Part shown: positions 23,489-46,141 of the stretch, piece after piece
Layout: each line of letters starts with the position of its first letter
Numbering within the stretch: the first letter of the stretch is position 1
Assembly (NCBI GenBank): GCA_964501915.1
Contig: CAZCVP010000003.1
Coordinates: 19,259-83,258, forward strand
Length of the DNA: 64,000 bases
Direction: 5' to 3'
DNA from: an uncultured Enterobacterales bacterium
GTDB taxonomy: Bacteria; Myxococcota_A; UBA796; CAJQPC01
The notes under the pieces: generated by a model
The model's input: only the letters and a program-made list of their open reading frames with translations
Told to the model about the DNA's origin: nothing
Database searches by the model: none
Translations under genes and position numbers: made by a program

Positions 23489-24847
23489 ATGCCGAGCGCC
23501 GCCGAAGCCAGCCATGCCACCAAGGGCCTGATCCGCCTGACCATGGCGTGCAACGAGCGCTGCCCCTTCTGCAACGTGCCGATGGAGGACTTCGGCGGCC
23601 GTCCGACCCCCGAGCCCGAGGTCGAGGGGTCGCTGGATGCCTTCGCCGAGGGCGGTGAGCGCACCGTGACGATCTCGGGCGGCGAGCCCACCCTGCTGCG
23701 CAGCCGCCTGCTGGCGACCGTGCGCAGCGCTCGAGGGCGTGGCCTGCCCTTCGTGGAGCTCCAGACCAACGCCATCCTGGTCGACGCCGACTACGCTCGG
23801 GCGCTCGCCGAGGCCGGCCTGACCTCCGCCTTCGTCTCCCTGCTCTCCCAGGACCCCGCCCACCACGACGCCCTCGCCGGCCTGGACGGCGCCTGGTCCC
23901 GCACCTTGTCGGGCATCGACCACCTGCTCGACGCCGGGGTCCGGGTGGCGCTGAACGTGGTCGTGGCGCGGCGAACGCAGGCGCTCCTGGCCGGCTACGT
24001 CGACTTCGTCGCCGACCGCCTGCCCCGGGTGGGCTCGATCTCCGTGTCGACGGTCCAGCCCCACGGCCGGGCGGCCACGGCGGTCGAGCTCTTGCCCGAC
24101 TACGCCGTGCTCGGACCGGAGGTGGAGCGAGCACGAGCTCGAGCTGCCCTCCACGGCATCGAGCTGTTGAACCCCTACTGCGGTCTGCCGGCCTGCGTGG
24201 GCTGGCAGGACGGCCTGGCCCACTGCGTCGAAGCCGTGGAGTCCCGCCTCGGCAGGAGCGGCCCCCAGGGCCTGGAGCAGGCCGGCAGCAAGTCCCACGG
24301 GGGCCCCTGTCGCCGCTGCGCCCTGCGTGCGCGGTGCGGCGGCGCCTGGCACGCCTACTGGACCCACCGCCAGGGGTCCGGGCTGGTGGCGCCGCTGCGG
24401 GTGGCCCCACCCTGGGAGCCCGGTGGCGAGGGCCAGCAGGTCGTCGCAGCGCCCGGCGGAGTCGGAGGGGAGACCTGGGCGCAGGTCGCGGCCGCGGAGG
24501 CGCCCGCCGTCTGGCTCCACACCGACCGCCTGGAGCCGGCGCAGGTCGCCGGGCTCCGCCAGCGGGGTGTCACCCACCTGGCCCTGGAGGGCCGGGCCAC
24601 CGACGTGCTGCGGACCCTCGGGGCGCTCGCGGCCGCCCAGAGAGACCACCTCCCCCAGGACCGGGTCCTCCCCTGGGTGTCGGTGGAGGCGCGCGACCTC
24701 GAGGCCCTCCTGCCCCTCGTGCAGCGCCTGGGCGCGGCCGGGGCCGTGGGGGTCGCCGTCCGCAGCGCCGATGCGCGGGGTCGCTCCCTGGTGGAGCGGG
24801 CGAGCGCCCTGGACCTGAGCCTGGAGCTGACGTGGCGGAGCCGCTGA
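23489..24847 (+). CDS. radical SAM protein with C-terminal auxiliary Cys motif and extra C-terminal domain (operon A, gene 1)
   Basis: 452 aa. Cluster motif CNERCPFC; ISGGEPTL (GGE motif); downstream GLPAC and CRRCALRARCGG (CxxCx5CxG). Confidence 0.85.
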   Translation: MPSAAEASHATKGLIRLTMACNERCPFCNVPMEDFGGRPTPEPEVEGSLDAFAEGGERTVTISGGEPTLLRSRLLATVRSARGRGLPFVELQTNAILVDADYARALAEAGLTSAFVSLLSQDPAHHDALAGLDGAWSRTLSGIDHLLDAGVRVALNVVVARRTQALLAGYVDFVADRLPRVGSISVSTVQPHGRAATAVELLPDYAVLGPEVERARARAALHGIELLNPYCGLPACVGWQDGLAHCVEAVESRLGRSGPQGLEQAGSKSHGGPCRRCALRARCGGAWHAYWTHRQGSGLVAPLRVAPPWEPGGEGQQVVAAPGGVGGETWAQVAAAEAPAVWLHTDRLEPAQVAGLRQRGVTHLALEGRATDVLRTLGALAAAQRDHLPQDRVLPWVSVEARDLEALLPLVQRLGAAGAVGVAVRSADARGRSLVERASALDLSLELTWRSR

Positions 24848-26031
24848 GGGTGCTGGTAGCGACGCCGCGGTCCCGGGGCCGGGTCCGCCTGGATCGCGCC
24901 GGTCCTTCCGAAGGCACCGATCCCCCGCTGCGGGACCTGCTGGCGGTCGAGGGGCCCCTCTGGGTCGGAGGGGGCGAGCCCACCCTGCGCCCCGACCTCC
25001 CAGCGCTCCTCGAGGCCCTGGGCGACCGACTCCTGGGGCTGCTGACGGACGGCCAGGCCCTGGTGAAGCCCGAGGCCTTCAGGCCCCTGCTGGAAGCCGG
25101 CCTGTCCCGGGTGCGCGTCCCCTTCCACAGCGCCCGGGCCGAGGCCCACGACTGGCTGGAGGGGCGGCCTGGCGCCCAGCGGCGAGCCTGGAGGGCTCTG
25201 CGGGTCGCCTGCGAGGCCGACCTCGAGGTGAGCGCGGAGGTGCTGCTGACCCGTCCCACCCTGCTCCACCTCGAGGCCACCTTGGGCCTGCTGGCCCGGC
25301 TGCCCCTGCGCCGGGTGGTCCTGCGGCTGCTCGAGGGCGACGCCCCCGGCTACCCCGCCACCGCGGCCCGGGTGGGCCTGATCGCCGAGCCCCTCCAGGC
25401 GGGCCTGGAGACGCTGCGTCGGGCCGGCTGCGACGTCGACTTCGAGGGCGTGCCGCGCTGTGTCGTCGAGGGCCTGGCCGTCCGTCGCACGCCGCGGCCG
25501 GTGTGGGTGGGCGTCGACGTCCCGGAGCCGCCGCCCCGCTCCACCGGCTGCGCGACCTGTCCGGCGGACGGCTCCTGTCCGGGCCCTTCGAGCGCCTACG
25601 TGGCGGCCTTCGGTCGCCAGGAGCTTCCGCGGGCTCCCCTCGAGAGCCAGCCTGTCGTGGTGCGCCTCCGAGAGGGCCTGAGCACCCGACACCTCCGGCA
25701 CCTGCTCGTCCAGGTCGCCTCCAGCGGAGCCCGTGCGCTGCGACTCGAAGGCCTGGACCACCCCCACGGCGCGGAGCTCCTCGGCGAGGCCCTGGCCCTG
25801 TGCTTCGAGCGGGTCGAGGTCAGCGGGCGGCTGGAGGCGGTGGCCGGCTGGAGCGACCGGGACCGCCTCCGTCTGCGTCGCGTCGACCACGTGGCGGCCC
25901 GCCGCCTGGGTCCCGACGCCGCGACCCACGACGCCAGGACCGGCCGGGTCGGGTCCTGGGAGGAGGCCGCCGCTCTGCTCCGGAAGCTGGCTGCCCAGGG
26001 CATCCCGACCTCTATTCAAGAGGATGCTTGA
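24832..26031 (+). CDS. radical-SAM-like protein lacking the CxxxCxxC motif (operon A, gene 2)
   Basis: The GTG at 24832 overlaps the upstream gene by 16 nt (alternative GTG at 24850). It keeps GGGEPTL, TDGQ and VRVPFHS blocks and the family tail (GVPRC and CATCPADGSCPG). No Cys triad is present in the N-terminal region. Confidence 0.6.
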   Translation: MAEPLRVLVATPRSRGRVRLDRAGPSEGTDPPLRDLLAVEGPLWVGGGEPTLRPDLPALLEALGDRLLGLLTDGQALVKPEAFRPLLEAGLSRVRVPFHSARAEAHDWLEGRPGAQRRAWRALRVACEADLEVSAEVLLTRPTLLHLEATLGLLARLPLRRVVLRLLEGDAPGYPATAARVGLIAEPLQAGLETLRRAGCDVDFEGVPRCVVEGLAVRRTPRPVWVGVDVPEPPPRSTGCATCPADGSCPGPSSAYVAAFGRQELPRAPLESQPVVVRLREGLSTRHLRHLLVQVASSGARALRLEGLDHPHGAELLGEALALCFERVEVSGRLEAVAGWSDRDRLRLRRVDHVAARRLGPDAATHDARTGRVGSWEEAAALLRKLAAQGIPTSIQEDA

Positions 26032-26082
26032 GTCCCGATCGGGTGGTCCCCCGGTCCCTGCCGACTACACTGCCGCCTGCGG

Positions 26083-27867
26083 ATGTCCGACCTCACCCAG
26101 GCGAAGCTCGACCGGGAGCGGATCGCCAACCGGCCCAAGCACTGGGTCCGGTTGGTGACCGCGTGCAACAACCGGTGCCTGTTCTGCCTGGACATGGACA
26201 CGCCGCGCAACGTCTACCTCTCGGAGGAGGAGATCCAGGCGGAGCTGCGCCGGGGACGGGAGGAGAAGGGTGCGGACAAGGTGATCCTCAGCGGGGGCGA
26301 GGCCAGCCTCCACCCCCTCTTCCCGGACCTGATCCGCTACGCCCACGACATCGGCTACACCCGCGTCCAGACCGTGACCAACGGCCTGCGCTACGCCGAC
26401 CGGGCCTTCTTCGACGCCGTCATCGAGGCCGGGCTGGACGAGATCACCTTCAGCCTGCACGGCCACACGGCCGAGCTGCACGACCACCTGGTCCAGACGC
26501 CCGGCAGCTACCGCAAGCTGATGAAGGGCCTGCTGCGGGCGCTCCGCGACGGTCGCCCGATCGTCAACGTGGACATCGTCATCAACCAGCAGAACGTGGC
26601 TCATGTGGCCGACATCGTCGGTCTGTGTGCCAAGCTGGGGGTGCGGGAGTTCGACCTGCTGCACGTGATCCCGCAGGCGGCGGCCTTCCGCAACCGTGAC
26701 CAGGTGTTCTACGACGTCCGCGAGCACCTGCCCCAGCTCCAGCGTGTCTTCGCGCTGAACCGCGAGGGCTTCTACATCTGGACCAACCGCTTCCCCGTCT
26801 CCTACCTGGAGGGCCTCGAGGACCTGATCCAGGACCCGCACAAGCTGCTGGACGAGGTCCACGGCCGCCGGTACCCGATCCGCCGCTACCTCGACCACGG
26901 CACGCCCCTGGAGTGTCGCGATCCGGAGCGCTGCCCGCACTGCTTCATCGAGCCCTTCTGCGACACCATGGACGACGTGGTGGAGGGCCTCCACCAGGGG
27001 ACTCACAGCGTCTGGGAGGCCGACCGGGTACCCGGGGAGCTGCCCTTCGGCTGCACTCGGCTCGGCTGGTCTTGCGACACGCCGCTGGAGATCCCCGAGC
27101 TGACCCCTGGCGTCGGCCTGCGCCTGCGGCTCTCCCAGCCGGCCGCGATCCCCTGGACGCTGCCCGATCCCACCACCCTGGTGCTGGCGACCCCCGCCGG
27201 GCTGGAGGCGGCCCTGGCGGCGCCGGTCCCGCCCTGGGTCGAGCTGGAGATCGCCCTCACCCAGGCCACGGCAGCCTGGCTGCTGGCGCACCGGGAGCGC
27301 ATCGCACCGGTGCTGGACCAGGTCCGCATCGACCAGCCGACCCACGAGCGCCTGGAGCAGGCGGTCGCCAGCGACGTCCGGGAGCCGCGGGCCTTCTTCC
27401 GGGAGCTGGACCTCCGGGTGCGGGTCTCGGGGCTGCCGGCCTGCCTGGCCCCCGACACGCGGCTGGTCGAGGCGCCGCGGGTCCTGGCGGCCGAGAGCTT
27501 CGACGGCGCAGGACGCCTCGACATCGAGGGGCTGGCACGGCACCACGTGGCGCGGGTCTATGGGGCCCGGTCGATCCGCTGCGACGAGTGCCGGGTGTCG
27601 GAGCGCTGCGACGGACTGCACATCAACGCCGTCCGAGACCAGGGGCTGGGGCAGCTCCAGCCCCTGCGCGACGGGTCCTGGGCCGAGGACGCCGCGCGAC
27701 AGCTCGAGGACCGCTGGCCCGTGCCGCCCGCCCGCGTCCGCCACGGGCGGCCACCCCAGGGGGCCCACCCGAGCCTTCCCGGACACCCCGAGCCCGGGCC
27801 GGCCCCCGAGGATCCCCTGGCCCGCAAGCGCGGCCTGCGTCGCTCCGACTTCCAGGTCGTCTCCTGA
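26083..27867 (+). CDS. radical SAM protein, long form (operon A, gene 3)
   Basis: 594 aa. Motifs: CNNRCLFC, LSGGEASL, a mid-protein CRDPERCPHCFIEPFC cluster, and a later GLPAC ... CDECRVSERCDG tail. The N-terminal about 200 aa is collinear with the 48396-49430 product. Confidence 0.85.
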   Translation: MSDLTQAKLDRERIANRPKHWVRLVTACNNRCLFCLDMDTPRNVYLSEEEIQAELRRGREEKGADKVILSGGEASLHPLFPDLIRYAHDIGYTRVQTVTNGLRYADRAFFDAVIEAGLDEITFSLHGHTAELHDHLVQTPGSYRKLMKGLLRALRDGRPIVNVDIVINQQNVAHVADIVGLCAKLGVREFDLLHVIPQAAAFRNRDQVFYDVREHLPQLQRVFALNREGFYIWTNRFPVSYLEGLEDLIQDPHKLLDEVHGRRYPIRRYLDHGTPLECRDPERCPHCFIEPFCDTMDDVVEGLHQGTHSVWEADRVPGELPFGCTRLGWSCDTPLEIPELTPGVGLRLRLSQPAAIPWTLPDPTTLVLATPAGLEAALAAPVPPWVELEIALTQATAAWLLAHRERIAPVLDQVRIDQPTHERLEQAVASDVREPRAFFRELDLRVRVSGLPACLAPDTRLVEAPRVLAAESFDGAGRLDIEGLARHHVARVYGARSIRCDECRVSERCDGLHINAVRDQGLGQLQPLRDGSWAEDAARQLEDRWPVPPARVRHGRPPQGAHPSLPGHPEPGPAPEDPLARKRGLRRSDFQVVS

Positions 27868-28997
27868 TGGCCAACCTCGGCTACGTCCAGCTCACCCGCA
27901 ACTGCCTCCAGCGGTGTCGCTTCTGCTCCAACCCCCCCACGGGGGTCGGCCTCGACGTCGACGGTCTCCACCACCTCATCGATCGCATGGCCGAGATGGA
28001 CTACGACGGCATCATCCTCACCGGCGGTGAGCCCAGCGCCTCGCCGCTGCTCTTCCCGGCGCTGGAGCGGGCCCGCGAGCGGGGGCTCACCAGCCGGATG
28101 ATCACCAACGGCCAGTACCTCGCCGAGCCGAAGTTCTTCCGGGCCTGCGTCGACGCGGGCCTGACGCATGTGCACCTGAGCCTGCACTCCTGGCGGCCAG
28201 CGGTGCACGACTTCATCACCCGCTACCCGGGGGCCCACGAGGCCCTCGTCGCGGCGCTGCGGCAGGTGCCGGCGCTGGGCATCACCGCCGACATCAACTG
28301 CGTCATCAACACCTACAACGCCGACCACCTCGACGAGAGCGTCGTCTGGCTCTGCGAGAGCTTCCCCTTCGTGCGGCACTTCGTCTGGAACCACATGGAT
28401 CCCGACGGCAACCGGGCCGAGGACAACCCCGACTGCGTCCCCCACCTCAGGGAATTCCTGGTCTCCCTGGAGCGGGCCATGGTCTACCTGGACGGCACGG
28501 GCCGCAGCTTCCGGGCCGAGCGGGTGCCCCTGTGCGCGATGCCGCGCTTCGGCTGGGCCTCCACCGAGACCCGCAAGATCGTCAAGGAGGAGGAGCGCTG
28601 CATCCACTTCCTCGACGGCAAGGGCTGGGTCCACCAGGTCGAGTTCCTGCACGGCAAGGCCGACGTGTGCGGGGACTGCTCCTACGACCCCATATGTGCC
28701 GGGCTCTACTCCATGGCCCGGTCCTTCGACGAGCGGGAGCTGAGCCCGATCTTCGAGCCGATCGGTCCCGTGGTGGAGCGGGTCCTCGGACATCCTGCCT
28801 CCCCCGAACTGCTGAGCCGGATCGAGGCTCGCCGGGGTCGGCGCTCCCCGACCGAACAGCCCACGGAGGCCCGACGAGCGGCCTGGCTGGCCCGTCCGAT
28901 GGCCTCTCCTCCGGACCTCGCAGCGGCTCCCGAAGCGGTTTCGGTGACCAGAGACCCCACGACATCTGCTAGAGTGCCCACGCGAGACCGTCCATGA
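27867..28997 (+). CDS. radical SAM protein (operon A, gene 4)
   Basis: TGATG overlap with the upstream gene. 376 aa. Motifs: CLQRCRFC, LTGGEPS, VPLCAMP and CGDCSYDPICAG tail. Confidence 0.85.
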   Translation: MANLGYVQLTRNCLQRCRFCSNPPTGVGLDVDGLHHLIDRMAEMDYDGIILTGGEPSASPLLFPALERARERGLTSRMITNGQYLAEPKFFRACVDAGLTHVHLSLHSWRPAVHDFITRYPGAHEALVAALRQVPALGITADINCVINTYNADHLDESVVWLCESFPFVRHFVWNHMDPDGNRAEDNPDCVPHLREFLVSLERAMVYLDGTGRSFRAERVPLCAMPRFGWASTETRKIVKEEERCIHFLDGKGWVHQVEFLHGKADVCGDCSYDPICAGLYSMARSFDERELSPIFEPIGPVVERVLGHPASPELLSRIEARRGRRSPTEQPTEARRAAWLARPMASPPDLAAAPEAVSVTRDPTTSARVPTRDRP

Positions 28998-31300
28998 CTG
29001 CTCTTCTCCTCTTCTCCTTGCTGGCCTGCCGTGACGATGGTCTCGTGGTCTACGAGACCCCTCCGATCGTCAGCATCGAGACCCCCGCGGACGGTTCCTC
29101 CTTCTACGAGGGCCAGGAGGTGCTCTTCACCGCCGTGGTCGCGTCGGGGGGCACGGCCTCCGTGACGGACCTCACCACGCGCTGGGTCGTCAACGACAGC
29201 CCCCTGTGCGACTCCACCGCCGTGCCCCCCGACGGTGTGGCGATCTGCACCGGAACGCTGGAGTCCGAGGGCGAGTACATCGTGCAGGTCAAGGCGGTCG
29301 ATCCCAGCGGTGCCACCGCCGAGGACTCGATCATCGTCTACGTCCAGTACAACAACCCGCCGACCGTCGAGATCCTCAGTCCGGCGGCGGGCGACGTCTT
29401 CGGTGTCGGCCAGCTCGTGGTGCTCGAGGCCCAGATCCTGGACCCCGAGGACGAGCCCACGAGCCTCCAGGTCGTCGTCGAGAGCAACGTCGAGGGTGTG
29501 CTCTCCGGTGTGCCCGAGAGTCCGTCGTCGGCTGGTGACTGGGCCGGTGGGACCCAGGACCTGACGGCGGGTTCCCACCTGCTCACCATCACGGCTTCGG
29601 ACTCCGTCGGCAAGACCGGCCAGGACACCGTCACGGTGCTGATGAACAACCGGCCGTCGGCGCCGACCGTGGCGATCGATCCCGGCAACCCCGTCTCCGA
29701 GGAGGCGCTGGTCGCGACCATCACCAGCCCGGCGATCGATCCCGAGGGCGACGCCATCACCCACCGCTACGACTGGTACGTGGACGGCAGCGTCTACAGC
29801 TCTTCGAACTCCCCCACCGTGCCCCTGGGTGTGGTCCAGCGCGGCGAGTACTGGGAGGTCCAGGTCTTCGCCAACGACGGCTACAGCGACTCGGCGCCCG
29901 GCTCCGACAGCGTCACCATCGGCAACAGCCCACCCAGCCTCGACTCCGTCACCATCACCCCGTCGGGAGCGGGGACCCTGGACGACCTCACCTGCACCCC
30001 GGTGGGCTGGCACGATCCCGAGGGCGACGCCGAGAGCTACGACTTCGTCTGGTACCACGACGGCACGGTCGACACCGACGAGACCACCGACTCCTTCCCC
30101 AACGAGAAGCACGCCAAGGGCGACGAGTTCCGCTGCGAGGTCACCCCTTCGGACACCTGGGCCATCGGTGACACCGTGTCCAGCTCCACCCTGACCATCC
30201 AGAACACCCCGCCCACCCAGCCCACGGTCATCATCGATCCCACGGCGCCGGAGCCCGAGGACAGCCTCTACTGCGACATCCTGACCGCTTCGACGGACGA
30301 CGACGACGACAGCATCAGCTACTACTACGCTTGGTACGTGAACGGCGTGCTGAACGCCGAGACCACGAATGTGCTCAGCGCCGACCAGACCGAGCACGGC
30401 GACACGATCGAGTGCGAGGTCATCCCCAACGACGGCGAGGACGACGGGACCGCGGGCACCTACGTGGTCAACATCACCGACGCCACGGCGCCGGATCCGC
30501 CCGTCCTGGACGACCCGGACCCCTACATCAACGAGGACAACCTCGACATCACCGGCACCTGCGAGGCCGGCTGCGACCTCACCTACTACTTCACCGACGC
30601 CACCGGTTCCTGGACCGAGGTCGGCACCTGCGAGAGCGACGGCACCCTGACGCTCCAGGTCTACCTGACCCGCGGCTACGAGACCACGGGCTACGCCACC
30701 TGCACCGACTCGGCGGGGAACACCTCGGGGAACTCGAACACGGTGACGATGCAGTCGTGTTCGGTGGAGGACACGTATGAGAACACGTCGGGGTATGGGG
30801 ACTCGGGGGCGAATGCGGTGAATGAGTGGAGTACGTTGACGGACGACGAGACCTCGACGGTCGAGACCATCACCGCCAACGCACTGACCTCCTCCGACGA
30901 GGACTGGTACGTGTTCTCGACGAACGACACGACGACCAGCAACGAGGAACAGTTCAACCTCCAGATCGACATGACGTCCGGCACGAGCACCTACAGCTTC
31001 GACGTCTACAAGGGCTCCCCGACCGGGGCCATCTGCACCGGCTCCGAGAAGAACTGCACGGGCTACGCGACCTCGTGCACCGAGTTCGAATTCTACAACG
31101 AAGACAACGCCATCACCCAGGACGGCGCCTCCTCGACCTACCACTCGACCGCCAGTCCTTCCTACCTGTGCGGTGACGCTGCCCAGAACGAGTGCCCCGA
31201 CTACTCCGATAGCTGGTACATCAAGGTCACGAGAAACGGAGGCGTCTCCGACTCCTGTGACCACTACGAGCTCGAAGTGAGCATGTCGGCCCGCCCATAG
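28994..31300 (+). CDS. large modular surface lipoprotein (Ig-like domains, 3 x about 92-aa DxDGD modules, Ig-like + PPC-like C-terminus)
   Basis: ATGA overlap with the upstream rSAM gene. MTALLLFSLLAC lipobox. The C-terminal region (TGTCEAGCDLTYYFTDATGSWTE ... TDSAGNTSG ... DEDWYVF ... WYIKV) is collinear with that of the 41655-46133 product. Confidence 0.8.
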   Translation: MTALLLFSLLACRDDGLVVYETPPIVSIETPADGSSFYEGQEVLFTAVVASGGTASVTDLTTRWVVNDSPLCDSTAVPPDGVAICTGTLESEGEYIVQVKAVDPSGATAEDSIIVYVQYNNPPTVEILSPAAGDVFGVGQLVVLEAQILDPEDEPTSLQVVVESNVEGVLSGVPESPSSAGDWAGGTQDLTAGSHLLTITASDSVGKTGQDTVTVLMNNRPSAPTVAIDPGNPVSEEALVATITSPAIDPEGDAITHRYDWYVDGSVYSSSNSPTVPLGVVQRGEYWEVQVFANDGYSDSAPGSDSVTIGNSPPSLDSVTITPSGAGTLDDLTCTPVGWHDPEGDAESYDFVWYHDGTVDTDETTDSFPNEKHAKGDEFRCEVTPSDTWAIGDTVSSSTLTIQNTPPTQPTVIIDPTAPEPEDSLYCDILTASTDDDDDSISYYYAWYVNGVLNAETTNVLSADQTEHGDTIECEVIPNDGEDDGTAGTYVVNITDATAPDPPVLDDPDPYINEDNLDITGTCEAGCDLTYYFTDATGSWTEVGTCESDGTLTLQVYLTRGYETTGYATCTDSAGNTSGNSNTVTMQSCSVEDTYENTSGYGDSGANAVNEWSTLTDDETSTVETITANALTSSDEDWYVFSTNDTTTSNEEQFNLQIDMTSGTSTYSFDVYKGSPTGAICTGSEKNCTGYATSCTEFEFYNEDNAITQDGASSTYHSTASPSYLCGDAAQNECPDYSDSWYIKVTRNGGVSDSCDHYELEVSMSARP
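29647..30478 (+). repeat. three tandem about 276-bp coding modules (about 92 aa each)
   Basis: Each module starts N(R/S/T)PP(S/T) and contains DPEGD/DDDDD...Y.(W)Y..G......GD...C.V.P.D. The modules are diverged at the DNA level. Confidence 0.7.
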
Positions 31301-33433
31301 ATGACCTCCCCGCACCCCTGTGCAACAGTCTGGTGCTCGGTCCTGCTCCTGGGGAGCGTCGGGACGCTCGACGTGTCCTGCATGCCCACCAAGGACGACT
31401 ACCTGAACCTGCGGGCCCACCTGGAAGACCTCGACGGCGACGGGGACCGCAACGAGCTCTACGGCGGTTCGGACTGCGATGACCAGGATCCAGACGTCCA
31501 CGGTGCGGGGATCGAGACCTGCGACGGCGTCGACCAGGACTGCGACGGAACGATCGACGAAGACGCCATCGACGCGACGACGTGGTTCGCGGACTCGGAC
31601 GGGGACGGGTTCGGGACGCCCGACCTCGCGTGGACGGCCTGCGAACAGCCCACCGGGTTCGTGACCGACGACTCGGACTGCGACGACGACGATGCAGCCC
31701 TGAACCCCGGGACCGTCTGGTTCGCCGACGGAGACGAGGACGGCTACGGGCTCGATGACTACACGACTCTTGGCTGCGAGCCTCCCCCCGGCTACTCCAG
31801 CACGCCCGGCGACTGCGACGACAGCGACGGGGAGGTGTACCCCGGTGCCGTCGAGGTGTGCGACGACCAGGACAACGACTGCGACGGCACGACAGACGGT
31901 GAAGACGCCGTCGACCGCACCACCTGGTACCGCGACGCCGATGGGGATGGCTATGGAGACGAGGAGGTCTCCGAGCTCACCTGTCCGCCAGGGGATGGCT
32001 GGACCGAGGTCCCCGGCGACTGCGACGAGTAACGCGAGGACATCAACCCAGCCGCCGAGGAGGTGTGCGAGGACCGCCGCGACGGTGACTGCGACGGCAC
32101 ACCGGCGGGCTGTGTTCCGACAGGCGTGGTGGGGGTCGACGAGGTGGCGTTTCCCATCCTGTCCCCCGTCGACACGGGCGGCGCGACCTTCACCGCCTGG
32201 GCCGCGCTCGACAACGGGACGTCTCCCGACGGACTGCTGCTGGGCATCTCCGATGGTGGCGGCTCCCTCTACCGCATCCACCACTGGGGCACTCCACCGA
32301 GCTCGATCACCTTGAGCGAGGCCGACCAGCTCCTGACCGGTGGTCCCGACAGCAGCTACTTCCCGGCCGCGATCACGACGATGCGAGACCTGGACGGGGA
32401 CGGCCGCGACGAGATCGGCGTCAGCGACAGCGGGACCGGGTCAGGCGCAGGCGCCGTCTACGTCTTCCAGAGTGGATGGTCCGGCGTACCGACGGTCGAT
32501 GACGCGGACTGGATCGTGCGCGGGGACCAGGCGAAGGACTACCTGGGCACTCGGGTGACCGCGGGCGACGTGCTGGACGGCGACGGCCAGGACGACCTCG
32601 TCGCCTCGGCCATCGGCGCCACGGGCGACCAGGACGGGGCGGGGGCTGTCTACGTCTTCGAGCTGGCGGAGCGAGGCGAGCTGGCCATCGGCGAGGCCGA
32701 CCTCACCGTCCACGGCGCCGTTGCAGGCGACGGAGCCGGTACGGCGGCCGTCGTGGCGGGCGACCTCGACGGAGACGGCTTCGACGACCTGGCGATCGGG
32801 TCACCGGGAGCGACCCTCGGCGGTTCGAACCCCATCGGCAGCGTCCAGATCATCCTCGGTGGCCGAGGGGGAGTGATCAGCGCCGTGGACGTCGACGCCA
32901 CCCTGGAGCCGGGTGAGGCCGCGGGACTGGGCAGTGGACTGGCTCCGGGAGGCGACACCAACGACGACGGCTAGGCCGACCTGCTCGTGGGAGCCACGGA
33001 CTACTCGGGCGTGGCTTCGCAAGCCGGGGTGGTGTTCGTCGTCCAGGGCCCCGTGACGGCCGGTGCACCGGATGACATGGCGGCGGGGAGCCTGCTCGGC
33101 GAGTCGCCCGGCGGCTTCTTCGGGACGCAGGTGACAGGCGGGGTGGACCTGGACGATGACGGTCATCCCGACGTCGCCGTCCACGAGCCCTACGCCGACG
33201 ACCCCGCGGTCTACCTCTTCCTGGGTCCCCTCGAAGGTGCTCGCCTGGCCTCTGGAGCCATGGCTCGCATCGAGGGCACGCCGACCAGTGGCGGCCTGGG
33301 ACCTGGGAGCGCGGCCACGCTGGTGCCGGACATGGACGGCGACAGCTACGGGGAGCTCCTCGTCCACGCACCTCGGTACGCAGACGGACTCGACCAGGCC
33401 GCCGTGTACATCATCGAGGGCTCGGGGATCTGA
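31301..33433 (+). pseudogene. metal-binding-motif (MopE-like DCDD...CDG.DNDCDG) / FG-GAP repeat protein gene interrupted by two in-frame stop codons
   Basis: Three ORFs (31301-32032, 32063-32974, 32987-33433) lie in the same frame. A TAA at 32030 falls inside a motif copy (GDCDE*REDINPAAEEVCEDRRDGDCDG). A TAG at 32972 falls inside an FG-GAP repeat (DTNDDG*ADLLVGA). There are no frameshifts. Confidence 0.7.
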
Positions 33434-33595
33434 CACTGCTGACCGGTCAGGTCGATGGCATCTCGCTTGCCCTCCGCCGCCCTGCCGACCCCGCCTCGCC
33501 TCGACGTGACTCGGCCACGCCAGCGGCTCCGCGTGGCCAACAGGACGGCGGATCGCGGCGCGATCCACTCGATCGACCTGACCGGTCAGCAGTGT
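33433..33595. repeat. perfect 24-bp inverted repeat pair separated by about 115 bp
   Basis: ACACTGCTGACCGGTCAGGTCGAT at 33433-33456. Its exact reverse complement ATCGACCTGACCGGTCAGCAGTGT is at 33572-33595. The pair starts directly after the stop codon at 33431-33433. Confidence 0.8.
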
Positions 33596-33741
33596 GACGA
33601 ACCCCCGACACCCCCCCTGTCGGAGGTTGACACCCCGACCCTTCCGGACCCGCCTCCCAGGCCGATCCAGCTCGTCTCGCCCCCCCCAGCTCCCCCGGCA
33701 CGGGCCTTGCTCTTCCGCCGGCTCCCCCCTGGAGGTGAGAC

Positions 33742-38192: not shown

Positions 38193-38699
38193 ATGGACAG
38201 CCGCATGGATTCACGCCGAGACCTCATCAAGAAGCTCGCGGTCGGCGCAGCCGCCGTCACCGCCCTGCCCGCTCCCCGGGCACAGGCTGCACGCTTCGTG
38301 GAGTACCTGGCCCCGGGTCCGGACCCGACCTGGTTGATCGCCCCTCTGTCTGCCGGCGACGGCATCGGCCACGGGTGGAGGCTGCGCGGCATCTCGACCC
38401 CCCGCCGCGGAGCCGTGGTGCTGGACCTCGTGCACGAGACCCTGGCGCCGGTCCAGGTCCACCTCTGCGCCCACCGCGGAGCCCCAAAGGGCGTCGCCCA
38501 CAGCCACTTCCTCGACTTCGTGCTCATGGACGGAGGCCAGGGCGACCGGCGGACCGAGGAGTCCATCGGACGGGCCCTGCGAGCCCTGGCCCACACCGTC
38601 GCCCGCAACGAGCTGGCGGCCGAGTCCGATCCAGCCCTGCTCGGACGCCTGATGACCCACGGTGAGCGGGTCGAGCGCTTCGGCCCCGAGGCCCTCTGA
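38193..38699 (+). CDS. TAT-signal hypothetical protein, first gene of the HXS-like block
   Basis: MDSRMDSRRDLIKKLAVGAAAVTALPAPRAQA contains a twin-arginine motif (SRRDLIKK). Its stop overlaps the next start (TGATG). Confidence 0.6.
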   Translation: MDSRMDSRRDLIKKLAVGAAAVTALPAPRAQAARFVEYLAPGPDPTWLIAPLSAGDGIGHGWRLRGISTPRRGAVVLDLVHETLAPVQVHLCAHRGAPKGVAHSHFLDFVLMDGGQGDRRTEESIGRALRALAHTVARNELAAESDPALLGRLMTHGERVERFGPEAL

Positions 38700-39145
38700 T
38701 GGCGGAGGGCACGTCGGAGACATCCTCCCAGGAGCTGGTGTTCGAGACCGCTGAGCGGAGGGTCACCTTCGAGATCGACGAGGAGATCTACCCCCGCGAC
38801 GCGATCTACGGCGCGGCCTACCTCTTCATGGATCGCTGCTACCTCTTCCTGGGCCGCCCGGCGGATCGCATCGTGAGCGTGCAGCTCCGGACCCGGGGCG
38901 AGGCCGACGAGGAGACCCTGACGGAGCTGGCCGGCGAGTTCGCCAACGAGCTGCTCAACCAGGTCCTGCGCCTCCGCGTCGGCGAGGCCACCACCCGCAT
39001 CCGTGAGTACACCCTGGCCAAGGCCTTCTTCTCCGACCCCGGCCGCAGCACCATCGATGCCCTGCTGGCCGAGCTGGACGCCGAGGAGCTCGACGAGGAC
39101 CCCCTGGAGATCGAAGTGCCCTGGGAGACCTCCACGGATGGCTGA
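38699..39145 (+). CDS. HxsD-like protein
   Basis: 148 aa. The pattern IYPRDAIYGAAYLFMDRCY ... FANELLNQVLRLRVGEATTRIREYTLAKAFF resembles my recollection of His-Xaa-Ser system protein HxsD (TIGR03976, signature LLNDYxLRE followed by ...IR...AKAF). Not verified by search. Confidence 0.5.
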   Translation: MAEGTSETSSQELVFETAERRVTFEIDEEIYPRDAIYGAAYLFMDRCYLFLGRPADRIVSVQLRTRGEADEETLTELAGEFANELLNQVLRLRVGEATTRIREYTLAKAFFSDPGRSTIDALLAELDAEELDEDPLEIEVPWETSTDG

Positions 39146-39356
39146 GCTGACCTTCTCCCGCTCGCTCTACCGTCCCGATGCCGTCCAGACCGCCGCACGG
39201 ACCTTCGAGAAGCTGGCCCGTGTCGAGGTCCGGGTCGAGGAAGACCAGGTCGTGGTGGTCCTCGATGACCCCCACCCGGCCCTGGCCCACAAGCTGGCCG
39301 ACGAGCTGGCCAACCACGCCCTCCACCACACGATCGTCGCGGAGCGGGAGATCTAG
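39138..39356 (+). CDS. short HxsD-like paralog
   Basis: 8-nt overlap with the upstream gene. The 72-aa product is MAELTFSRSLYRPDAVQTAARTFEKLARVEV...LADELANHALHHTIVAEREI, which repeats the Y..DA...AA..F and EL.N.aL pattern of the preceding gene. Confidence 0.45.
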   Translation: MAELTFSRSLYRPDAVQTAARTFEKLARVEVRVEEDQVVVVLDDPHPALAHKLADELANHALHHTIVAEREI

Positions 39357-39965: not shown

Positions 39966-39977
39966 CCCGGGAGGCCC

Positions 39978-41654: not shown

Positions 41655-44600
41655 ATGACTCCTCTGTTCGCCCTTCTCCTGCTGGCCGGCTGCCCGGACC
41701 AGAACATCGGCCGCTACGTCGCGCCGCCCGTGGTGGCGATCGAGAACCCCAAAGAGGGCGACGAGCTCTACGAAGGCGTCTCCGTCGGCATGGTCGGCGT
41801 GGTCGCCGACGAGGCCTACTCGACCCGCCTCGACCAGCTCACCGTCCTGTGGCTGGTCAACAACGAGCGCGTCTGCGACGACGCCACCCTCGACGTCAGC
41901 GGTGTGACGGTCTGCGAGCACGTCTTCCCCGTCGGCGAGGCGGAGATCCTGCTCTCGGCGACCAACCCCGACGGCGAGGCCGACGACAGCACCGTGGTGG
42001 TGACCGTGCTGGCCAACGGCGCTCCCACCCTCGACATCGAAGCCCCCACCGCCGACAGCAGCTACTACAGCGACCACCTCGTCGAGCTGAAGGCCACCGT
42101 GAGCGACCCCGAGGACCCCTCGGAGGACCTCAGCGTCACGTGGGTGGGAGCCGGTCCCGACGAGTGGTCCGTCGACACGGACCCGACCAGCGACGGGACG
42201 GCACTGGGCTCGATCCACATGGAGAGCGGGGAGTGGTTCATCACCGCCACCGTCAAGGACACCGTGGGCCGGACCGCCCAGGACAGCGTGACCATCCTCG
42301 TGGGCGAGCCGAACAACCCGCCCGAGTGTGCCATCACCTCTCCGGAGAGCGGCTCCGGGGTCGCGGAGGGCAAGGCCACCTTCTTCGAGGGCACGGCCAG
42401 CGACGCCGACGTGGCCTCGGACATGCTGACCGCGGAGTGGAGCAGCGACCTCGACGGCCCGCTGGGAAGCTCCACCGTGCCGTCCGATGGCAACCTGACC
42501 TTCAGCGCCTCGTCGTTGTCCACCGGGGCCCACACCATCACGCTCCAGGTCGCCGACGAGGTCGGCACGACCTGCACCGACAACATCCAGTTCCTGGTCG
42601 GCACCCAGCCCTTCGTCACCATCACGGCTCCGACCTCCGGCGACACGTCGAACCAGGGCGACTCGGTGCTCTTCGAGGCCCTGGTCCAGGACCTGGACCA
42701 CGACCCCACCCTGGTGACCCTGAGCTGGTCGAGCACCCTGGACGGCGTCTTCAACGACCAGTCCGCCACCAGCGCCGGCGAGACCACCTTCACCACCCAG
42801 GCGCTGTCCGCCGGCGCCCACACCATCACCCTGTCCGCCATGGACCCCGAGGGCTTCACGGGCAGCGACTCGATCTCGTTCACGGTCAACGGGCTCCCGG
42901 ATCCCCCGGACGTGGAGATCACGCCCGACCCGGCGACCTCGGCCGACGACCTCAACGTGAGCATCGTCATCGACGCCATCGACCCCGAAGGCGACACGAT
43001 CACCTACGCCTACGCCTGGTACCAGGACGGCCTCGCGACCAGCCACACGAGCGGCTTGTTGCCCTCGTCCGCGACCACCCGCGGCGAGACATGGCGGGTC
43101 GACGTCACCCCGCACGACGGGCTCGGCACCGGCGATCCGGGCAGCGACACGGTGACCATCGAGAACGCTCCGCCCAGCATCGCGCTGGTCGCCCTGACCC
43201 CCGATCCGGCCGACGTCACCGACACCCTCACCTGCGCGGTGGTCGGCTCCAGCGATGCCGACGGCGACACCGTGACCCTGGCCTACGCCTGGACCGTCAG
43301 CGGCAGCACGATCTCCCACTCCAGCACGACCCTGAGCAGCGACTTCGCCAAGGGCGACACGGTCACCTGCACGGTCACCCCCACCGACGGCAGCGCCACC
43401 GGCACGCCGGTCACCTCCAACACGCTGACCATCGTCAACTCGGCGCCCAGCCTCACCAGCGTGAGCCTCACGCCGACCAGCCCCGGCGTCGGCGACACCC
43501 TCACCTGCACACCCAACGGCGCCTCGGACGCCGACGGCGACGCCATCTCCTACGCCACCGCCTGGACGGTCGGCGGGGTCACGATCAAGTCCACCGGTGA
43601 GACCCTCACCTCGCCGGACTTCGCCAGGGGCGACGAGGTGTACTGCACCGTCACGCCGACCGACGGCACCGACGCCGGCACGGCGGTCGACTCGAACACC
43701 GTCACCATCGGCAACACCGCCCCCGAGCTCAGCGAGGCCTCCCTGTCCCCGGACCCGGCCTACGAGGCCGACACCGTCGTCTGCACGCCGGGATCGTCCA
43801 GCGACGCCGACGGCGACAGCGTCACCTACACCTATGCCTGGACGATCGACGGCGGCAGCACCTCCGCCACCTCGAGCAGCCTCACGGGCAGCGACTTCGA
43901 CAAGGGAGACGACGTCGTCTGCCTCGTCACCCCCAGCGACGGCACCGACGACGGCACCACCGTCTCCACCTCGGCCCTCACCATCTCCAACACGCCGCCG
44001 AGCGTGGCCAGCGCGTCGATCTCCCCGTCCACCGCCTACGTCGACGACCTGCTCTCGGTCTCGACGAGCGGCTGGAGCGACGACGACGGCGACACGGAGT
44101 CCTACCTCTACCAGTGGTACGTCAACAGCTCTCCGGTGTCGGGCGCGACCGTGAGCACCTTCTCCGGCAGCTTCGAGAAGGGCGACGTCGTCGAGGTGAT
44201 GGTCACCCCCTACGACGGCACGGACAGCGGCACCGCGGTGACGGCCTCCGCGGTGACCATCTCCAACTCGGCGCCGACGATCGACAGCGTGAGCCTCACC
44301 CCGACCAGCGCCACGGAGTCCAGCACCCTGACCTGTAGCGCCAACGGCACCGACGACGCCGACGGCGACAGCGTGAGCGAGTCCATCACCTGGTCGCTGA
44401 ACGGCGTCACCATCTCGGCCACGAGCACCACCCTCGACGGCGGGGACTTCTCCAAGGGCGACGAGGTGGTCTGCACGATCACCCCCGACGACGGCACGGA
44501 CACCGGGACGGCGGTGGACAGCAACACGGTCACCATCGCCAACACCCCACCCGTGCTGTCCAGCGTGACGCTCGGTCCGGACCCGGCCTATGAGAGCGAC

Positions 44601-46133: not shown

Positions 46134-46141
46134 GCTCGACC

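What the first reader, a model, noticed from the sequence alone, without database searches (positions are those of the whole stretch)
23489..33433. Second, paralogous multi-radical-SAM operon coupled to a paralogous lipoprotein but with no visible precursor peptide
Seen:
- Four consecutive + strand genes (23489-24847, 24832-26031, 26083-27867, 27867-28997) are linked by overlaps or a 51-bp gap.
- The last of them overlaps (ATGA) the start of a 768-aa lipoprotein gene. That gene abuts the metal-binding-motif/FG-GAP gene, with TAG immediately followed by ATG.
- All four enzymes share the same tail signature seen in block B: GLPAC...CRRCALRARCGG; GVPRC...CATCPADGSCPG; GLPAC...CDECRVSERCDG; VPLC...CGDCSYDPICAG.
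- The 26083 product is collinear over its first about 200 aa with the 48396 product.
- I found no His-Xaa-Ser repeat ORF or other short repeat peptide in or next to this operon.

Inference: there are at least three possibilities. The operon may act in trans on the HGS peptide encoded 17 kb away. Its substrate may be the co-encoded lipoprotein or FG-GAP protein. Or its precursor may be too short or atypical for me to see.

Counting the two B12-rSAM genes, the window holds nine rSAM-fold genes in 64 kb. That is an unusual density.
Basis: partly seen in the sequence, partly recalled or inferred. Interest (0 to 1): 0.75.

Follow-up and report, generated by a model that had tools for sequence, protein, structure and literature searches.

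The report
Half of an expanded His-Xaa-Ser system
The four radical-SAM genes are not an orphan operon: they are one half of a large, conserved myxobacterial gene system built around a His-Gly-Ser repeat peptide encoded 17 kb away, an elaborate and so far undescribed relative of the recently characterised HXS antiphage system.

Summary
Four tightly linked radical-SAM-fold genes (g1-g4, 23489-28997) are translationally coupled to a 768-aa Ig-like lipoprotein gene, and the operon has no precursor. Three amendments apply. g2 is a conserved pseudo-enzyme with no CxxxCxxC motif (0 of 59 orthologs have one). g3 carries two Cys-rich tails. The MopE/FG-GAP "gene" has two in-frame stop codons.

Comparative genomics settles the interpretation. 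In 99 related loci, g2-g3-g4 usually sit beside a Tat-signal protein (F7), HxsD, a small HxsD-like ORF (x73), a true HxsB, an HxsA4-type (His-Gly-Ser)n precursor, block B's three radical-SAM genes and an HExxH hydroxylase. The precursor lies 0.9-8.2 kb from g2-g4 in relatives and 17 kb away in the window. Operon A and block B are therefore two parts of one system, pushed apart by lineage-specific insertions. The short and long lipoprotein paralogs are recurrent members too.

None of the seven radical-SAM paralogs reaches a curated family cutoff (best weak hits: HxsC, HxsC4, PapB). I found no paper describing this architecture. The window copy lacks HxsB.

Verdict: a new, much expanded variant of the known His-Xaa-Ser system. 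Its chemistry and biological role are unknown.

The parts
23489..24847 (+). g1: HxsC-like radical SAM enzyme (452 aa). CNERCPFC cluster motif, CRRCALRARCG auxiliary-cluster tail, and an extra C-terminal domain of about 170 aa.
   Evidence: Pfam PF04055 E 4.9e-19. Best NCBIfam hit HxsC TIGR03977 at 85 bits against a cutoff of 268. Motifs. Orthologs 50-67% identical in relatives.
24832..26031 (+). g2: pseudo-radical-SAM protein (399 aa). It has an rSAM-fold core with a GGEP box but no CxxxCxxC, and keeps the CATCPADGSCP tail. It lacks the 80-130 aa C-terminal extension seen in many orthologs.
   Evidence: Pfam match only from profile position 50. 0 of 59 orthologs have CxxxCxxC upstream of the GGE box. 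C-terminal extension in relatives shown. Frame supported by GC3.
26083..27867 (+). g3: HxsC/HxsC4-like radical SAM enzyme (594 aa) with two Cys-rich tails (aa 284 and aa 500) and a confidently folded extra C-terminal half. It is the most conserved gene of the module.
   Evidence: Pfam E 1.8e-20. HxsC4 98 bits against cutoff 500. More than 120 full-length homologs at 55-72% identity. AF2 pLDDT 87.9. Foldseek matches only the core: BlsE, SkfB, viperin, SuiB.
27867..28997 (+). g4: HxsC-like radical SAM enzyme (376 aa). CLQRCRFC motif and CGDCSYDPICA tail. Its start overlaps the g3 stop (TGATG), and its stop overlaps the lipoprotein start (ATGA).
   Evidence: Pfam E 1.8e-18. HxsC 81.5 bits against cutoff 268. 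It follows g3 in 56 of 64 loci. Junctions.
28994..31300 (+). Short Ig-like lipoprotein (768 aa, lipobox LLFSLLAC), a recurrent accessory member of the system.
   Evidence: Big_6/PKD/Big_7 hits. Paralog of the 1492-aa protein, E 2e-89. Orthologs lie directly after g4 and/or directly before F7-HxsD in many loci.
31301..33433 (+). MopE-motif/FG-GAP gene, interrupted by in-frame TAA (32030) and TAG (32972). Probably a pseudogene. Related MopE/FG-GAP genes are frequent neighbours of the system.
   Evidence: Pfam hits. Collinear alignment with an intact 706-aa ortholog. MopE/FG-GAP genes next to lipo768 orthologs.
38193..38699 (+). F7: conserved Tat-signal protein (about 165 aa; MDSRRDLIKKLAVGAAAV...). 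Its stop overlaps the HxsD start.
   Evidence: 42% identical to the L009 ortholog. Signal and junction. Followed by HxsD in 18 of 25 loci. Pfam TAT_signal (weak) on the L107 ortholog.
38699..39145 (+). HxsD, the His-Xaa-Ser system protein.
   Evidence: TIGR03976 62.3 bits against cutoff 50.
39138..39353 (+). x73: small HxsD-like ORF (71 aa), conserved between HxsD and HxsB in relatives. In the window the HxsB gene that should follow it is absent.
   Evidence: tblastn 49-53% identity to L107/L108 and hits in more than 20 loci. Coordinates.
41655..46133 (+). Long Ig-like lipoprotein paralog (1492 aa). Long paralogs recur inside related clusters.
46142..46402 (+). HxsA-type precursor (87 aa): a leader with a KPTQFLQ box and an LLLLQAADSLELDP box, then the core HCS(HGS)4HGQW.
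   Evidence: The leader is homologous to those of L023, L011 and L108. Weak hits to HxsA/A2/A3/A4, all below cutoff.
46415..47419 (+). Br1: short HxsB/PapB-like radical SAM enzyme without a Cys-rich tail.
47416..48399 (+). Br2: HxsC/HxsC4-like radical SAM enzyme with a tail motif.
48396..49430 (+). Br3: HxsC4-like radical SAM enzyme (153 bits against cutoff 500) with a tail motif.
52405..53577 (-). aKG-HExxH-type peptide beta-hydroxylase-domain protein. In many relatives it is divergent directly upstream of g1 or g2.
   Evidence: TIGR04267 91.7 bits against cutoff 40. Synteny.

Best explanation
g1-g4 are accessory maturases of an expanded His-Xaa-Ser (Hxs) system, not a self-contained operon. 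The full system, as seen contiguous in relatives, comprises:
- an HExxH hydroxylase;
- g1, g2 (pseudo-rSAM), g3 and g4;
- usually a short Ig-like lipoprotein;
- a Tat-signal protein (F7);
- HxsD and a small HxsD-like protein (x73);
- HxsB;
- an HxsA4-type precursor (leader plus (His-Gly-Ser)n, ending HGQW or HGSW);
- three more rSAM enzymes (Br1-3);
- often a long Ig-like lipoprotein.

In the window lineage the same collinear order is stretched to about 30 kb (23489-53577) by insertions between the lipoprotein and F7 and between x73 and HxsA. HxsB is missing.

**Shown here:** membership of one conserved gene neighbourhood; the identities of HxsD, of HxsB and HxsA4 in relatives, and of HExxH; and the pseudo-enzyme status of g2.

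**Inferred:** the HxsC-like enzymes g1, g3 and g4, each with a SAM cluster plus an auxiliary-cluster tail, carry out radical modifications on the HGS-repeat core in the cytoplasm. This is by analogy with HxsB, HxsC and HxsD acting on HxsA. The leader is probably presented by HxsD/x73, and g2 probably acts as a non-catalytic partner of g3. The product then acts in the cell envelope together with the Tat-exported F7 and the lipoproteins.
For: **Synteny in genome loci.** HExxH(-) g1 g2 g3 g4 F7 HxsD HxsB HxsA Br1 Br2 are contiguous in L005. Equivalent orders occur in L006, L008, L009, L010, L011 and L013.

**99 loci mapped.**
- g4 follows g3 in 56 of 64 loci, and g2 precedes g3 in 52 of 68.
- 15 of 18 loci with at least 5 kb on both sides carry other system parts.
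- In 22 loci with both, HxsA lies 0.9-8.2 kb from g2-g4 (median 3.5 kb), against 17.1 kb in the window.

**Curated-model hits.**
- Window HxsD 62.3 bits against cutoff 50, and HExxH 91.7 against 40.
- Relatives' HxsB 459.8 against 370, and HxsA4 192.6 against 55.
- Best NCBIfam hits of g1 and g4 are HxsC; of g3, Br2 and Br3, HxsC4.

**Tree.** Each paralog group is monophyletic. g1-g4, Br2 and Br3 fall on the HxsC side, and Br1 falls with HxsB.

**Precursor.** The window's leader is homologous to those of L023, L011 and L108.

**No alternative precursor in operon A**.

**Known biochemistry.** Canonical HxsB, HxsC and HxsD mature HxsA, and HxsC binds HxsD (PMC13128918).
Against: - There is no biochemical or genetic evidence for any of these proteins. 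Activity on HxsA is inferred from gene neighbourhood and distant homology only.
- None of g1-g4 or Br1-3 reaches the HxsC or HxsC4 cutoff.
- The window's HxsA is below all four HxsA model cutoffs.
- The window lacks HxsB, which is essential in the canonical system, both within the window and within about 10 kb and about 6 kb beyond its two ends.
- Three loci (L073, L084, L085) have g2-g3 alone, with no Hxs parts within 7-10 kb.
- All loci were retrieved through g3, mostly from fragmentary metagenomes, so the co-occurrence figures are lower bounds from a biased sample.
- The NJ tree has no support values.
Confidence: 0.75

Rival explanations
1. g1-g4 act on the co-encoded Ig-like lipoprotein(s), or on the MopE/FG-GAP protein, instead of or in addition to the HGS peptide. 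The lipoprotein is then the true substrate, modified in the cytoplasm before export.
For: - g4 and the lipoprotein are translationally coupled by ATGA.
- A lipo768 ortholog follows g4 in 9 of 45 loci and precedes F7-HxsD in 6 of 9.
- Short and long paralogs are both embedded in related clusters, and MopE/FG-GAP genes recur nearby.
Against: - Many clusters keep g2-g3-g4 with no lipoprotein gene nearby. In soil-type loci Br2 follows g4 in 11 of 45 cases.
- In L107 and L108 the lipoprotein sits next to F7-HxsD and well away from g1-g4. It tracks the Hxs core rather than the g module.
- A folded multi-Ig lipoprotein with a signal peptide is an atypical rSAM substrate (general knowledge).
- The MopE/FG-GAP gene is broken in the window.
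Confidence: 0.12
2. The module makes or matures a small molecule or cofactor (a MoaA-, BlsE- or PqqE-like role) and is only co-located with the Hxs genes.
For: - The closest solved structures and sequences for g3 include the small-molecule enzyme BlsE and GDGT-MAS.
- g2-g3 occur alone in L073, L084 and L085.
- A PfkB-SIS sugar kinase/isomerase fusion sits inside the window cluster.
Against: - No curated cofactor family is approached. MoaA, AhbD and PqqE score at most about 70 bits against cutoffs of 230-500.
- The best family hits are HxsC and HxsC4.
- Physical linkage to precursor, HxsD and HxsB persists across several different gene orders.
- PfkB-SIS is not found in the relatives' clusters.
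- Peptide maturases such as SkfB and SuiB are equally close structural matches.
Confidence: 0.05
3. In this particular organism the system is decaying. g1-g4 are leftovers of a once-complete Hxs cluster and no longer make a product.
For: - HxsB is absent.
- The precursor has the fewest repeats seen: 5, against 9-49 in complete relatives.
- g2 lacks the C-terminal extension present in its nearest relatives.
- The adjacent MopE/FG-GAP gene has two in-frame stops.
- The cluster is interrupted by unrelated genes.
Against: - All seven rSAM-fold genes, HxsD, x73, F7, HxsA and HExxH are intact ORFs with strong coding GC3. Catalytic Cys motifs are preserved in six of the seven.
- Canonical HxsA also has only five repeats (PMC13128918).
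- Short g2 forms also occur in L007, L011 and L012.
- HxsB could lie elsewhere in the genome.
Confidence: 0.15

Closest known systems
Canonical HXS (His-Xaa-Ser) system HxsD-HxsB-HxsC-HxsA: predicted by Haft & Basu 2011 as cited in PMC9062424, and shown to be an antiphage system in PMC13128918 (Nat Commun 2026)
   Same: - A precursor with tandem His-Xaa-Ser repeats.
- An HxsD protein that passes the curated model.
- HxsB in relatives that passes the curated model.
- HxsC-like rSAM enzymes as the nearest family for g1, g3, g4, Br2 and Br3.
- Probable cytoplasmic maturation followed by action in the envelope.
   Different: - The canonical system has four genes and two rSAM enzymes. This one has about 13-15 genes and 7-8 rSAM-fold proteins, including a conserved pseudo-rSAM.
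[quoted passage not shown] Here the precursor is a leader plus 5-49 uniform HGS repeats ending in GQW or GSW.
- Extra conserved parts here: an HExxH hydroxylase, a Tat-signal protein, a second HxsD-like ORF, and short and long Ig-like lipoproteins.
- Canonical systems are 99.7% in Pseudomonadota and often on mobile DNA. This one is in uncultured Myxococcota-type MAGs and marine or soil metagenomes.
- No paralog reaches the HxsC cutoff.
- The window copy lacks HxsB.
NCBIfam 'variant 4' models HxsA4 (NF038313) and HxsC4 (NF038332, 'rSAM_rare_HxsC4')
   Same: Relatives' precursors are bona fide HxsA4 (L005: 192.6 bits against cutoff 55). Br3, Br2 and g3 have HxsC4 as their best hit.
   Different: The window's precursor scores 28.9 bits against cutoff 55. 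The best HxsC4 score is 153 against cutoff 500, so none is a member. No paper in the searchable library mentions HxsA4 or HxsC4. The g1-g4, F7, x73 and lipoprotein components have no curated family.
Multi-enzyme rSAM RiPP clusters with twitch/SPASM maturases (for example SkfB and SuiB; PapB-type ranthipeptide maturases)
   Same: The N-terminal rSAM core plus a C-terminal Cys-rich auxiliary-cluster motif. SkfB and SuiB are among the nearest structural matches for g3. Br1's best model hit is PapB. The precursor is organised as leader plus core.
   Different: All scores are far below the family cutoffs. There is no RRE-type N-terminal domain on g1-g4. The number of paralogous rSAM genes devoted to one simple tripeptide-repeat core is unusual.

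Membership tests
His-Xaa-Ser (HXS) system, canonical HxsABCD | Precursor HxsA with tandem His-Xaa-Ser repeats (TIGR03979) | tested here: inconclusive
   The repeat motif is present: HCS(HGS)4HGQW at 46349-46402. The peptide scores 31.8 bits against a cutoff of 121.65. It is 87 aa with no Pfam domain, so it lacks the larger HxsA architecture.
His-Xaa-Ser (HXS) system, canonical HxsABCD | HxsD protein (TIGR03976) | tested here: met
   Window 38666-39145 scores 62.3 bits against cutoff 50. The L005 ortholog scores 55.8.
His-Xaa-Ser (HXS) system, canonical HxsABCD | HxsB rSAM/SPASM maturase (TIGR03978) | tested here: not met
   tblastn with a bona fide HxsB finds no ortholog in the window; the best hit is Br1 at E 0.011. 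No further rSAM gene lies within about 10 kb and about 6 kb beyond the window ends. The feature is met in relatives: L009 scores 459.8 bits against cutoff 370.
His-Xaa-Ser (HXS) system, canonical HxsABCD | HxsC rSAM maturase (TIGR03977) | tested here: not met
   g1 85.1, g3 79.1, g4 81.5, g2 27.9, Br2 66.9 and Br3 57.0 bits against a cutoff of 267.9. Relatives' orthologs are also below it. HxsC or HxsC4 is nevertheless the best-scoring family.
His-Xaa-Ser (HXS) system, canonical HxsABCD | Compact four-gene order HxsD-HxsB-HxsC-HxsA (99.6% of systems, PMC13128918) | tested here: not met
   The window order is g1 g2 g3 g4 lipo ... F7 HxsD x73 ... HxsA Br1 Br2 Br3 ... HExxH. Relatives have F7 HxsD x73 HxsB HxsA Br1-3. 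A canonical locus is shown for comparison.
His-Xaa-Ser (HXS) system, canonical HxsABCD | Antiphage activity through a periplasmic matured HxsA | not testable with these tools
   PADLOC (2023) has no Hxs models; it returned only generic viperin-core similarity.
NCBIfam HxsA4/HxsC4 variant | Precursor matches HxsA4 (NF038313, cutoff 55) | tested here: not met
   The window peptide scores 28.9 bits, and the full-length 87-aa form has no hit at 1e-20. The L005 relative scores 192.6 bits, which meets the cutoff. Leader homology between the window and relatives is visible by alignment.
NCBIfam HxsA4/HxsC4 variant | An rSAM enzyme matching HxsC4 (NF038332, cutoff 500) | tested here: not met
   Best score in the window is Br3 at 153.1 bits. 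g3 scores 98.4 and Br2 80.7. Relatives score 83-144 bits.
Radical SAM superfamily (PF04055) | Core domain plus a CxxxCxxC [4Fe-4S]/SAM motif | tested here: met
   Met for g1, g3 and g4 (and Br1-3): Pfam E 1e-18 to 1e-23 with the motif present. Not met for g2: partial domain only, no motif, and 0 of 59 orthologs have one.
SPASM/twitch-type rSAM (auxiliary Fe-S cluster domain) | C-terminal Cys-rich motif binding one or more auxiliary clusters | tested here: inconclusive
   A CxxCxxxxxC tail with an upstream G(L/V)PxC is present in g1-g4, Br2 and Br3. The nearest structures, BlsE and SkfB, are twitch-type enzymes. No SPASM Pfam model hit was returned. Cluster binding is not testable here.
aKG-HExxH-type peptide beta-hydroxylase (TIGR04267 domain) | Domain model above cutoff | tested here: met
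   Window 52405-53577(-) scores 91.7 bits against cutoff 40.

The most novel reading that the evidence does not exclude
A machine of about 15 genes with 7-8 rSAM-fold proteins installs several different radical (and hydroxyl) modifications along a poly(His-Gly-Ser) peptide. The product would be a heavily cross-linked, possibly metal- or DNA-binding polymer that is exported and works with dedicated Tat-exported and Ig-like lipoprotein partners. That would amount to a new class of rSAM-made envelope structure, or phage-entry barrier, in Myxococcota. It would also include a conserved pseudo-rSAM subunit (g2) acting as a scaffold for g3.
Probability: 0.3. Interest if true: 0.8.

Novelty: new variant of a known kind. 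Interest (0 to 1): 0.6.

Why it matters
The four-gene HXS system was only assigned a function (blocking phage DNA entry) in 2026. Its radical chemistry, a +8 Da change on one HxS repeat, is still unsolved.

This finding shows that a much larger relative exists outside Pseudomonadota. It has a minimal precursor (leader plus pure HGS repeats), five to six HxsC-like enzymes, a conserved catalytically dead rSAM paralog, a hydroxylase and dedicated envelope proteins.

This gives enzymologists a simpler, repetitive substrate and a natural series of paralogs for working out what HxsC-type enzymes do. It also gives phage-defence researchers a candidate envelope-level system in myxobacteria.

It also illustrates a practical point. 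An apparently orphan rSAM operon can be one half of a system split by lineage-specific insertions, and synteny in relatives can reunite the halves.

Tried and rejected
1. **Hidden precursor in operon A.** I ran a six-frame HxS scan, Tandem Repeats Finder and a small-ORF scan with a conservation filter. Nothing was found. The 350-500 bp 'gaps' between g2 and g3 in relatives turned out to be a C-terminal extension of g2, not a small gene.

2. **Known cofactor pathway.** NCBIfam gives only weak sub-cutoff hits to MoaA, AhbD, PqqE and NirJ. Rejected.

3. **Known defence system.** PADLOC returns only generic rSAM-core similarity to viperins and nothing for HxsD or F7.

4. **HxsB hiding in the window or just outside.** tblastn at E up to 50 and contig extension at both ends found none. 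The 197-aa ORF after x73 (39372-39965) shows no similarity to HxsB.

5. **Function of g3's C-terminal half.** The AF2 model is confident, but Foldseek against the PDB only matched the N-terminal rSAM core. The PDB profile search gave the same result.

6. **Recent duplication of block B.** Rejected. Paralogs are 21-30% identical, whereas each has orthologs at 50-78% identity in other genomes.

7. **Literature on this variant.** Searches for HxsA4, HxsC4 or HGS-repeat strings returned no paper.

8. **Gene calling.** My first GC3-based gene caller missed g2, g4 and F7. Gene maps were therefore based on tblastn with reference proteins.

Full report
**1. Checking the observation**

The window is about 71% G+C, so raw ORF lists are full of shadow ORFs. 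Third-position GC analysis supports the four + strand genes. It places the frame switch from g1 to g2 at about 24850.

All four products match Pfam Radical_SAM at E 8e-11 to 2e-20.
- g1 and g2 overlap by 16 nt.
- g2 and g3 are separated by 51 nt.
- g3/g4 share TGATG.
- g4 and the lipoprotein share ATGA.
- The lipoprotein and the MopE gene read TAG-ATG.

The Cys-rich tails are present in all four. g3 and the 48396 product are 39% identical over 173 residues. The 768-aa and 1492-aa lipoproteins are true paralogs at 38-39% identity, E 2e-89.

Four details need amending:
- g2 has no CxxxCxxC and matches the rSAM profile only from position 50.
- g3 has two tail motifs.
- Br1 (46415-47419) has no tail motif.
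- The MopE/FG-GAP 'gene' is one reading frame with in-frame TAA (32030) and TAG (32972). It aligns collinearly with an intact 706-aa ortholog.

**2. No precursor in the operon**

- The only peptide with two or more H-x-S repeats in six frames of the whole window is at 46349-46393.
- No tandem repeat in 22.5-39.2 kb could encode a repeat peptide.
- Upstream of g1 a divergent lipoprotein-like gene (about 22806-23450, minus strand) leaves only about 40 bp.
- A small-ORF scan of 22.8-35.1 kb leaves three candidates outside genes, and none is conserved in any related locus.

**3. What the enzymes resemble**

None of g1-g4 reaches any NCBIfam cutoff. The best hits are HxsC for g1 and g4 (85 and 81.5 bits against a cutoff of 268) and HxsC4 for g3 (98 against 500). 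Cofactor families such as MoaA, AhbD and PqqE score lower still.

Block B contains:
- a bona fide HxsD (62.3 bits against cutoff 50);
- an HExxH peptide-hydroxylase domain protein (91.7 against 40);
- three further rSAM genes whose best hits are PapB, HxsC4 and HxsC4, all below cutoff.

The HGS peptide hits HxsA, HxsA2, HxsA3 and HxsA4 only weakly.

**4. Relatives**

g3 has more than 1300 detectable homologs. The top 120 are all full-length and 55-72% identical, mostly from Myxococcota-type MAGs. I fetched 19 loci from genomes and 80 from metagenomes through g3. I mapped all system components onto them with tblastn and a repeat-pattern search.

The typical order is:

HExxH(-) g1 g2 g3 g4 [short lipoprotein] F7 HxsD x73 HxsB HxsA Br1 Br2 Br3

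This appears in, for example, L005, L022, L033, L067, L078, L082, L094 and L097.

A second arrangement puts HxsB-HxsA-Br1-3 a few kb upstream of HExxH(-) g1-g4 (L002, L003, L011, L012).

A soil type has HxsA(-) F7(-) divergent from g2 g3 g4 Br2 g3' with one or two HxsD-HxsB pairs (L039, L051, L052, L063, L075, L076).

Curated models confirm the key identities. The protein between HxsD and HxsA in relatives is a true HxsB (459.8 bits against 370). L005's precursor is a true HxsA4 (192.6 against 55).

Co-occurrence figures:
- g4 follows g3 in 56 of 64 loci, and g2 precedes g3 in 52 of 68.
- 15 of 18 loci with at least 5 kb on both sides carry other system parts.
- In 22 loci with both, the precursor lies 0.9-8.2 kb (median 3.5 kb) from g2-g4, against 17.1 kb in the window.

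There are exceptions. L073, L084 and L085 carry g2-g3 alone.

**5. The window's arrangement**

The window is collinear with the typical order, with three differences:
- (a) About 7 kb is inserted between the lipoprotein and F7. This comprises the broken MopE/FG-GAP gene, an unclear 1.6 kb stretch and two minus-strand genes.
- (b) Between x73 and HxsA, a 197-aa unknown ORF, a PfkB-SIS fusion and the long lipoprotein stand where HxsB should be.
- (c) Two genes are inserted between Br3 and HExxH.

These follow.

F7 (38193-38699) has a classic twin-arginine signal, and its stop overlaps the HxsD start. x73 (39138-39353) overlaps the HxsD stop. Both couplings are conserved in relatives.

HxsB is absent from the window and from about 10 kb and about 6 kb beyond its two ends.

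**6. The lipoproteins**

Full-length orthologs of the 768-aa protein occur in many lineages, and there is a second size class of about 1220-1490 aa.

In four independently inspected genomes the short form lies immediately upstream of F7-HxsD-x73-HxsB-HxsA-Br1-3. The long form is embedded in the same cluster. MopE/FG-GAP genes are frequent neighbours.

In the mapped loci a lipo768 ortholog follows g4 in 9 of 45 cases and is followed by F7 in 6 of 9. The lipoproteins are therefore dedicated accessory members. Many clusters lack them, so they are unlikely to be the obligatory substrate of g1-g4.

**7. Anatomy of the paralogs**

In a distance tree each of g1, g2, g3, g4, Br1, Br2, Br3 and HxsB forms its own clade on a long stem. 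Br1 groups with HxsB. The others fall on the side of canonical HxsC, taken from an Aeromonas plasmid locus. The tree has no support values.

Orthologs are 50-78% identical across genomes, whereas paralogs are 21-30% identical. The duplications are therefore old, and operon A is not a copy of block B.

g2 is a conserved pseudo-enzyme: 0 of 59 orthologs have CxxxCxxC. They share an R..G.LD motif in its place. Many carry an extra C-terminal Cys-rich extension that the window's g2 lacks.

The AF2 model of g3 is confident (pLDDT 87.9). Only its N-terminal core finds structural relatives (BlsE, SkfB, viperin, SuiB), and the sequence profile search agrees.

**8. Precursors**

Twenty-three HxsA-type peptides were collected. 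Each has:
- a 40-80 aa leader with a K(K/T)Pxx(F/Y)L box;
- a second acidic or hydrophobic box;
- a core H(C/M/L/A)S followed by (H[G/A]S)n, ending HGQW (marine and myxobacterial types) or HGSW (soil type).

Repeat numbers are 9-49 in complete relatives and 5 in the window. The window's leader is closest to those of L023, L011 and L108.

**9. Comparison with what is known**

The canonical HXS system is four genes (HxsD-HxsB-HxsC-HxsA), and 99.7% of examples are in Pseudomonadota. [quoted passage not shown] HxsB, HxsC and HxsD are needed for N-terminal processing and for a +8 Da modification on SHRSS. HxsC binds HxsD. The matured protein blocks phage DNA entry from the periplasm (PMC13128918).

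The system here shares the repeat motif, HxsD, HxsB (in relatives) and HxsC-like enzymes. It differs in size, precursor architecture, accessory genes and taxon.

NCBIfam has HxsA2, HxsA3, HxsA4 and HxsC4 models, so curators knew of variants. No searchable paper mentions them or HGS-repeat peptides, and none of the seven paralogs fits any model. PADLOC (2023) has nothing relevant.

**10. Mechanism and confidence**

Shown: operon A belongs to the same conserved gene system as the HGS precursor, HxsD and block B.

Inferred, with confidence of about 0.6-0.7: g1, g3 and g4 carry out radical modifications on the HGS core. HxsD/x73 handle the leader, and g2 acts as a non-catalytic partner. The product then acts in the envelope with F7 and the lipoproteins.

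Whether the role is antiphage defence, as for canonical HXS, is open. The high conservation and the stable chromosomal synteny look less like a mobile defence island, but this is only an impression.

In the window organism the missing HxsB, the short repeat tract, the truncated g2 and the broken MopE/FG-GAP gene raise the possibility of partial decay.

**11. Verdict**

This is a new, much expanded variant of a known kind, of moderate to high interest for rSAM/RiPP enzymology and for phage-defence biology.

Noticed in passing
window 31301-33433 (+): The MopE-motif/FG-GAP gene is one reading frame interrupted by in-frame TAA (32030) and TAG (32972). The intact 706-aa ortholog in L109 has Ser and Tyr at those positions. 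This is either a pseudogene or an assembly or consensus error.
   Followed up: yes
window 39145-46142: HxsB, which sits between x73 and HxsA in relatives, is missing. In its place are a 197-aa ORF of unknown function (39372-39965), a PfkB kinase-SIS isomerase fusion (39978-41588) and the 1492-aa lipoprotein. No HxsB lies within about 10 kb and about 6 kb beyond the window ends.
   Followed up: yes
window 39138-39353 (+); L107:13195-13416; L108:13251-13469: A small ORF of about 71-73 aa (x73) with an HxsD-like C-terminal motif (L.DE..N..L) is conserved between HxsD and HxsB in more than 20 loci. It overlaps both neighbours' stop and start codons. It is an apparently unannotated second HxsD-like component.
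   Followed up: partly
window 38193-38699 (+): A conserved Tat-signal protein (F7, about 165 aa, no Pfam or NCBIfam family) always lies just upstream of HxsD. It contains conserved His and Cys residues. It might export the matured peptide or bind it in the periplasm.
   Followed up: partly
L015:2318-10001, L019:7640-10001, L020, L109:1-7081: In the window's nearest relatives, 2.4-7.4 kb of unrelated genes (Ser/Thr kinase, CotH, a queuosine-synthesis-like gene, an SDR) are inserted between g2 and g3. The window has no insertion but has a g2 that lacks its C-terminal extension. The g2/g3 junction looks like a rearrangement hot spot.
   Followed up: partly
window 33594-34934 (+): An ORF in the poorly coding 33.4-35.0 kb stretch contains 'MPNHLHLV', reminiscent of the HxH motif of IS200/RAYT-type Y1 transposases. 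No Pfam or NCBIfam hit was obtained, so this is only a hint that the insertion between the lipoprotein and F7 is of mobile origin.
   Followed up: partly
They are unrelated to the Hxs-type system.
   Followed up: partly
L039, L051, L052, L063, L075, L076: Soil-type clusters have no g1. They carry extra short paralogs after g4 (a Br2-like gene, a short g3-like gene and sometimes a short g4-like gene) and one or two HxsD-HxsB pairs. Their precursors start HMS or HLS and end HGSW instead of HGQW.
   Followed up: partly
L005:16247-16879: One precursor carries 49 H-x-S repeats (223 aa). NCBIfam also gives it weak collagen-like adhesin hits, purely because of the Gly-X-Y-like periodicity. Repeat number varies 10-fold between lineages.
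   Followed up: no
window 22806-23450 (-): A small lipoprotein-like gene (...IPLFAMLTAC...) is divergent from g1, with only about 40 bp between the start codons. It is conserved with the LRR protein and S46 peptidase genes only in the closest relatives (L001, L019, L096). In more distant relatives this position is held by the HExxH hydroxylase gene.
   Followed up: partly
L073, L084, L085: g2-g3 pairs occur with no g4 and no Hxs component within 7-10 kb. This suggests that g2-g3 is the tightest functional unit and can be encoded away from the rest of the system.
   Followed up: partly
window 35022-36302 (-): A weak MYXO-CTERM sorting-domain hit (18.7 bits against cutoff 20) at the C-terminus, consistent with a Myxococcota origin for the window.
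   Followed up: no
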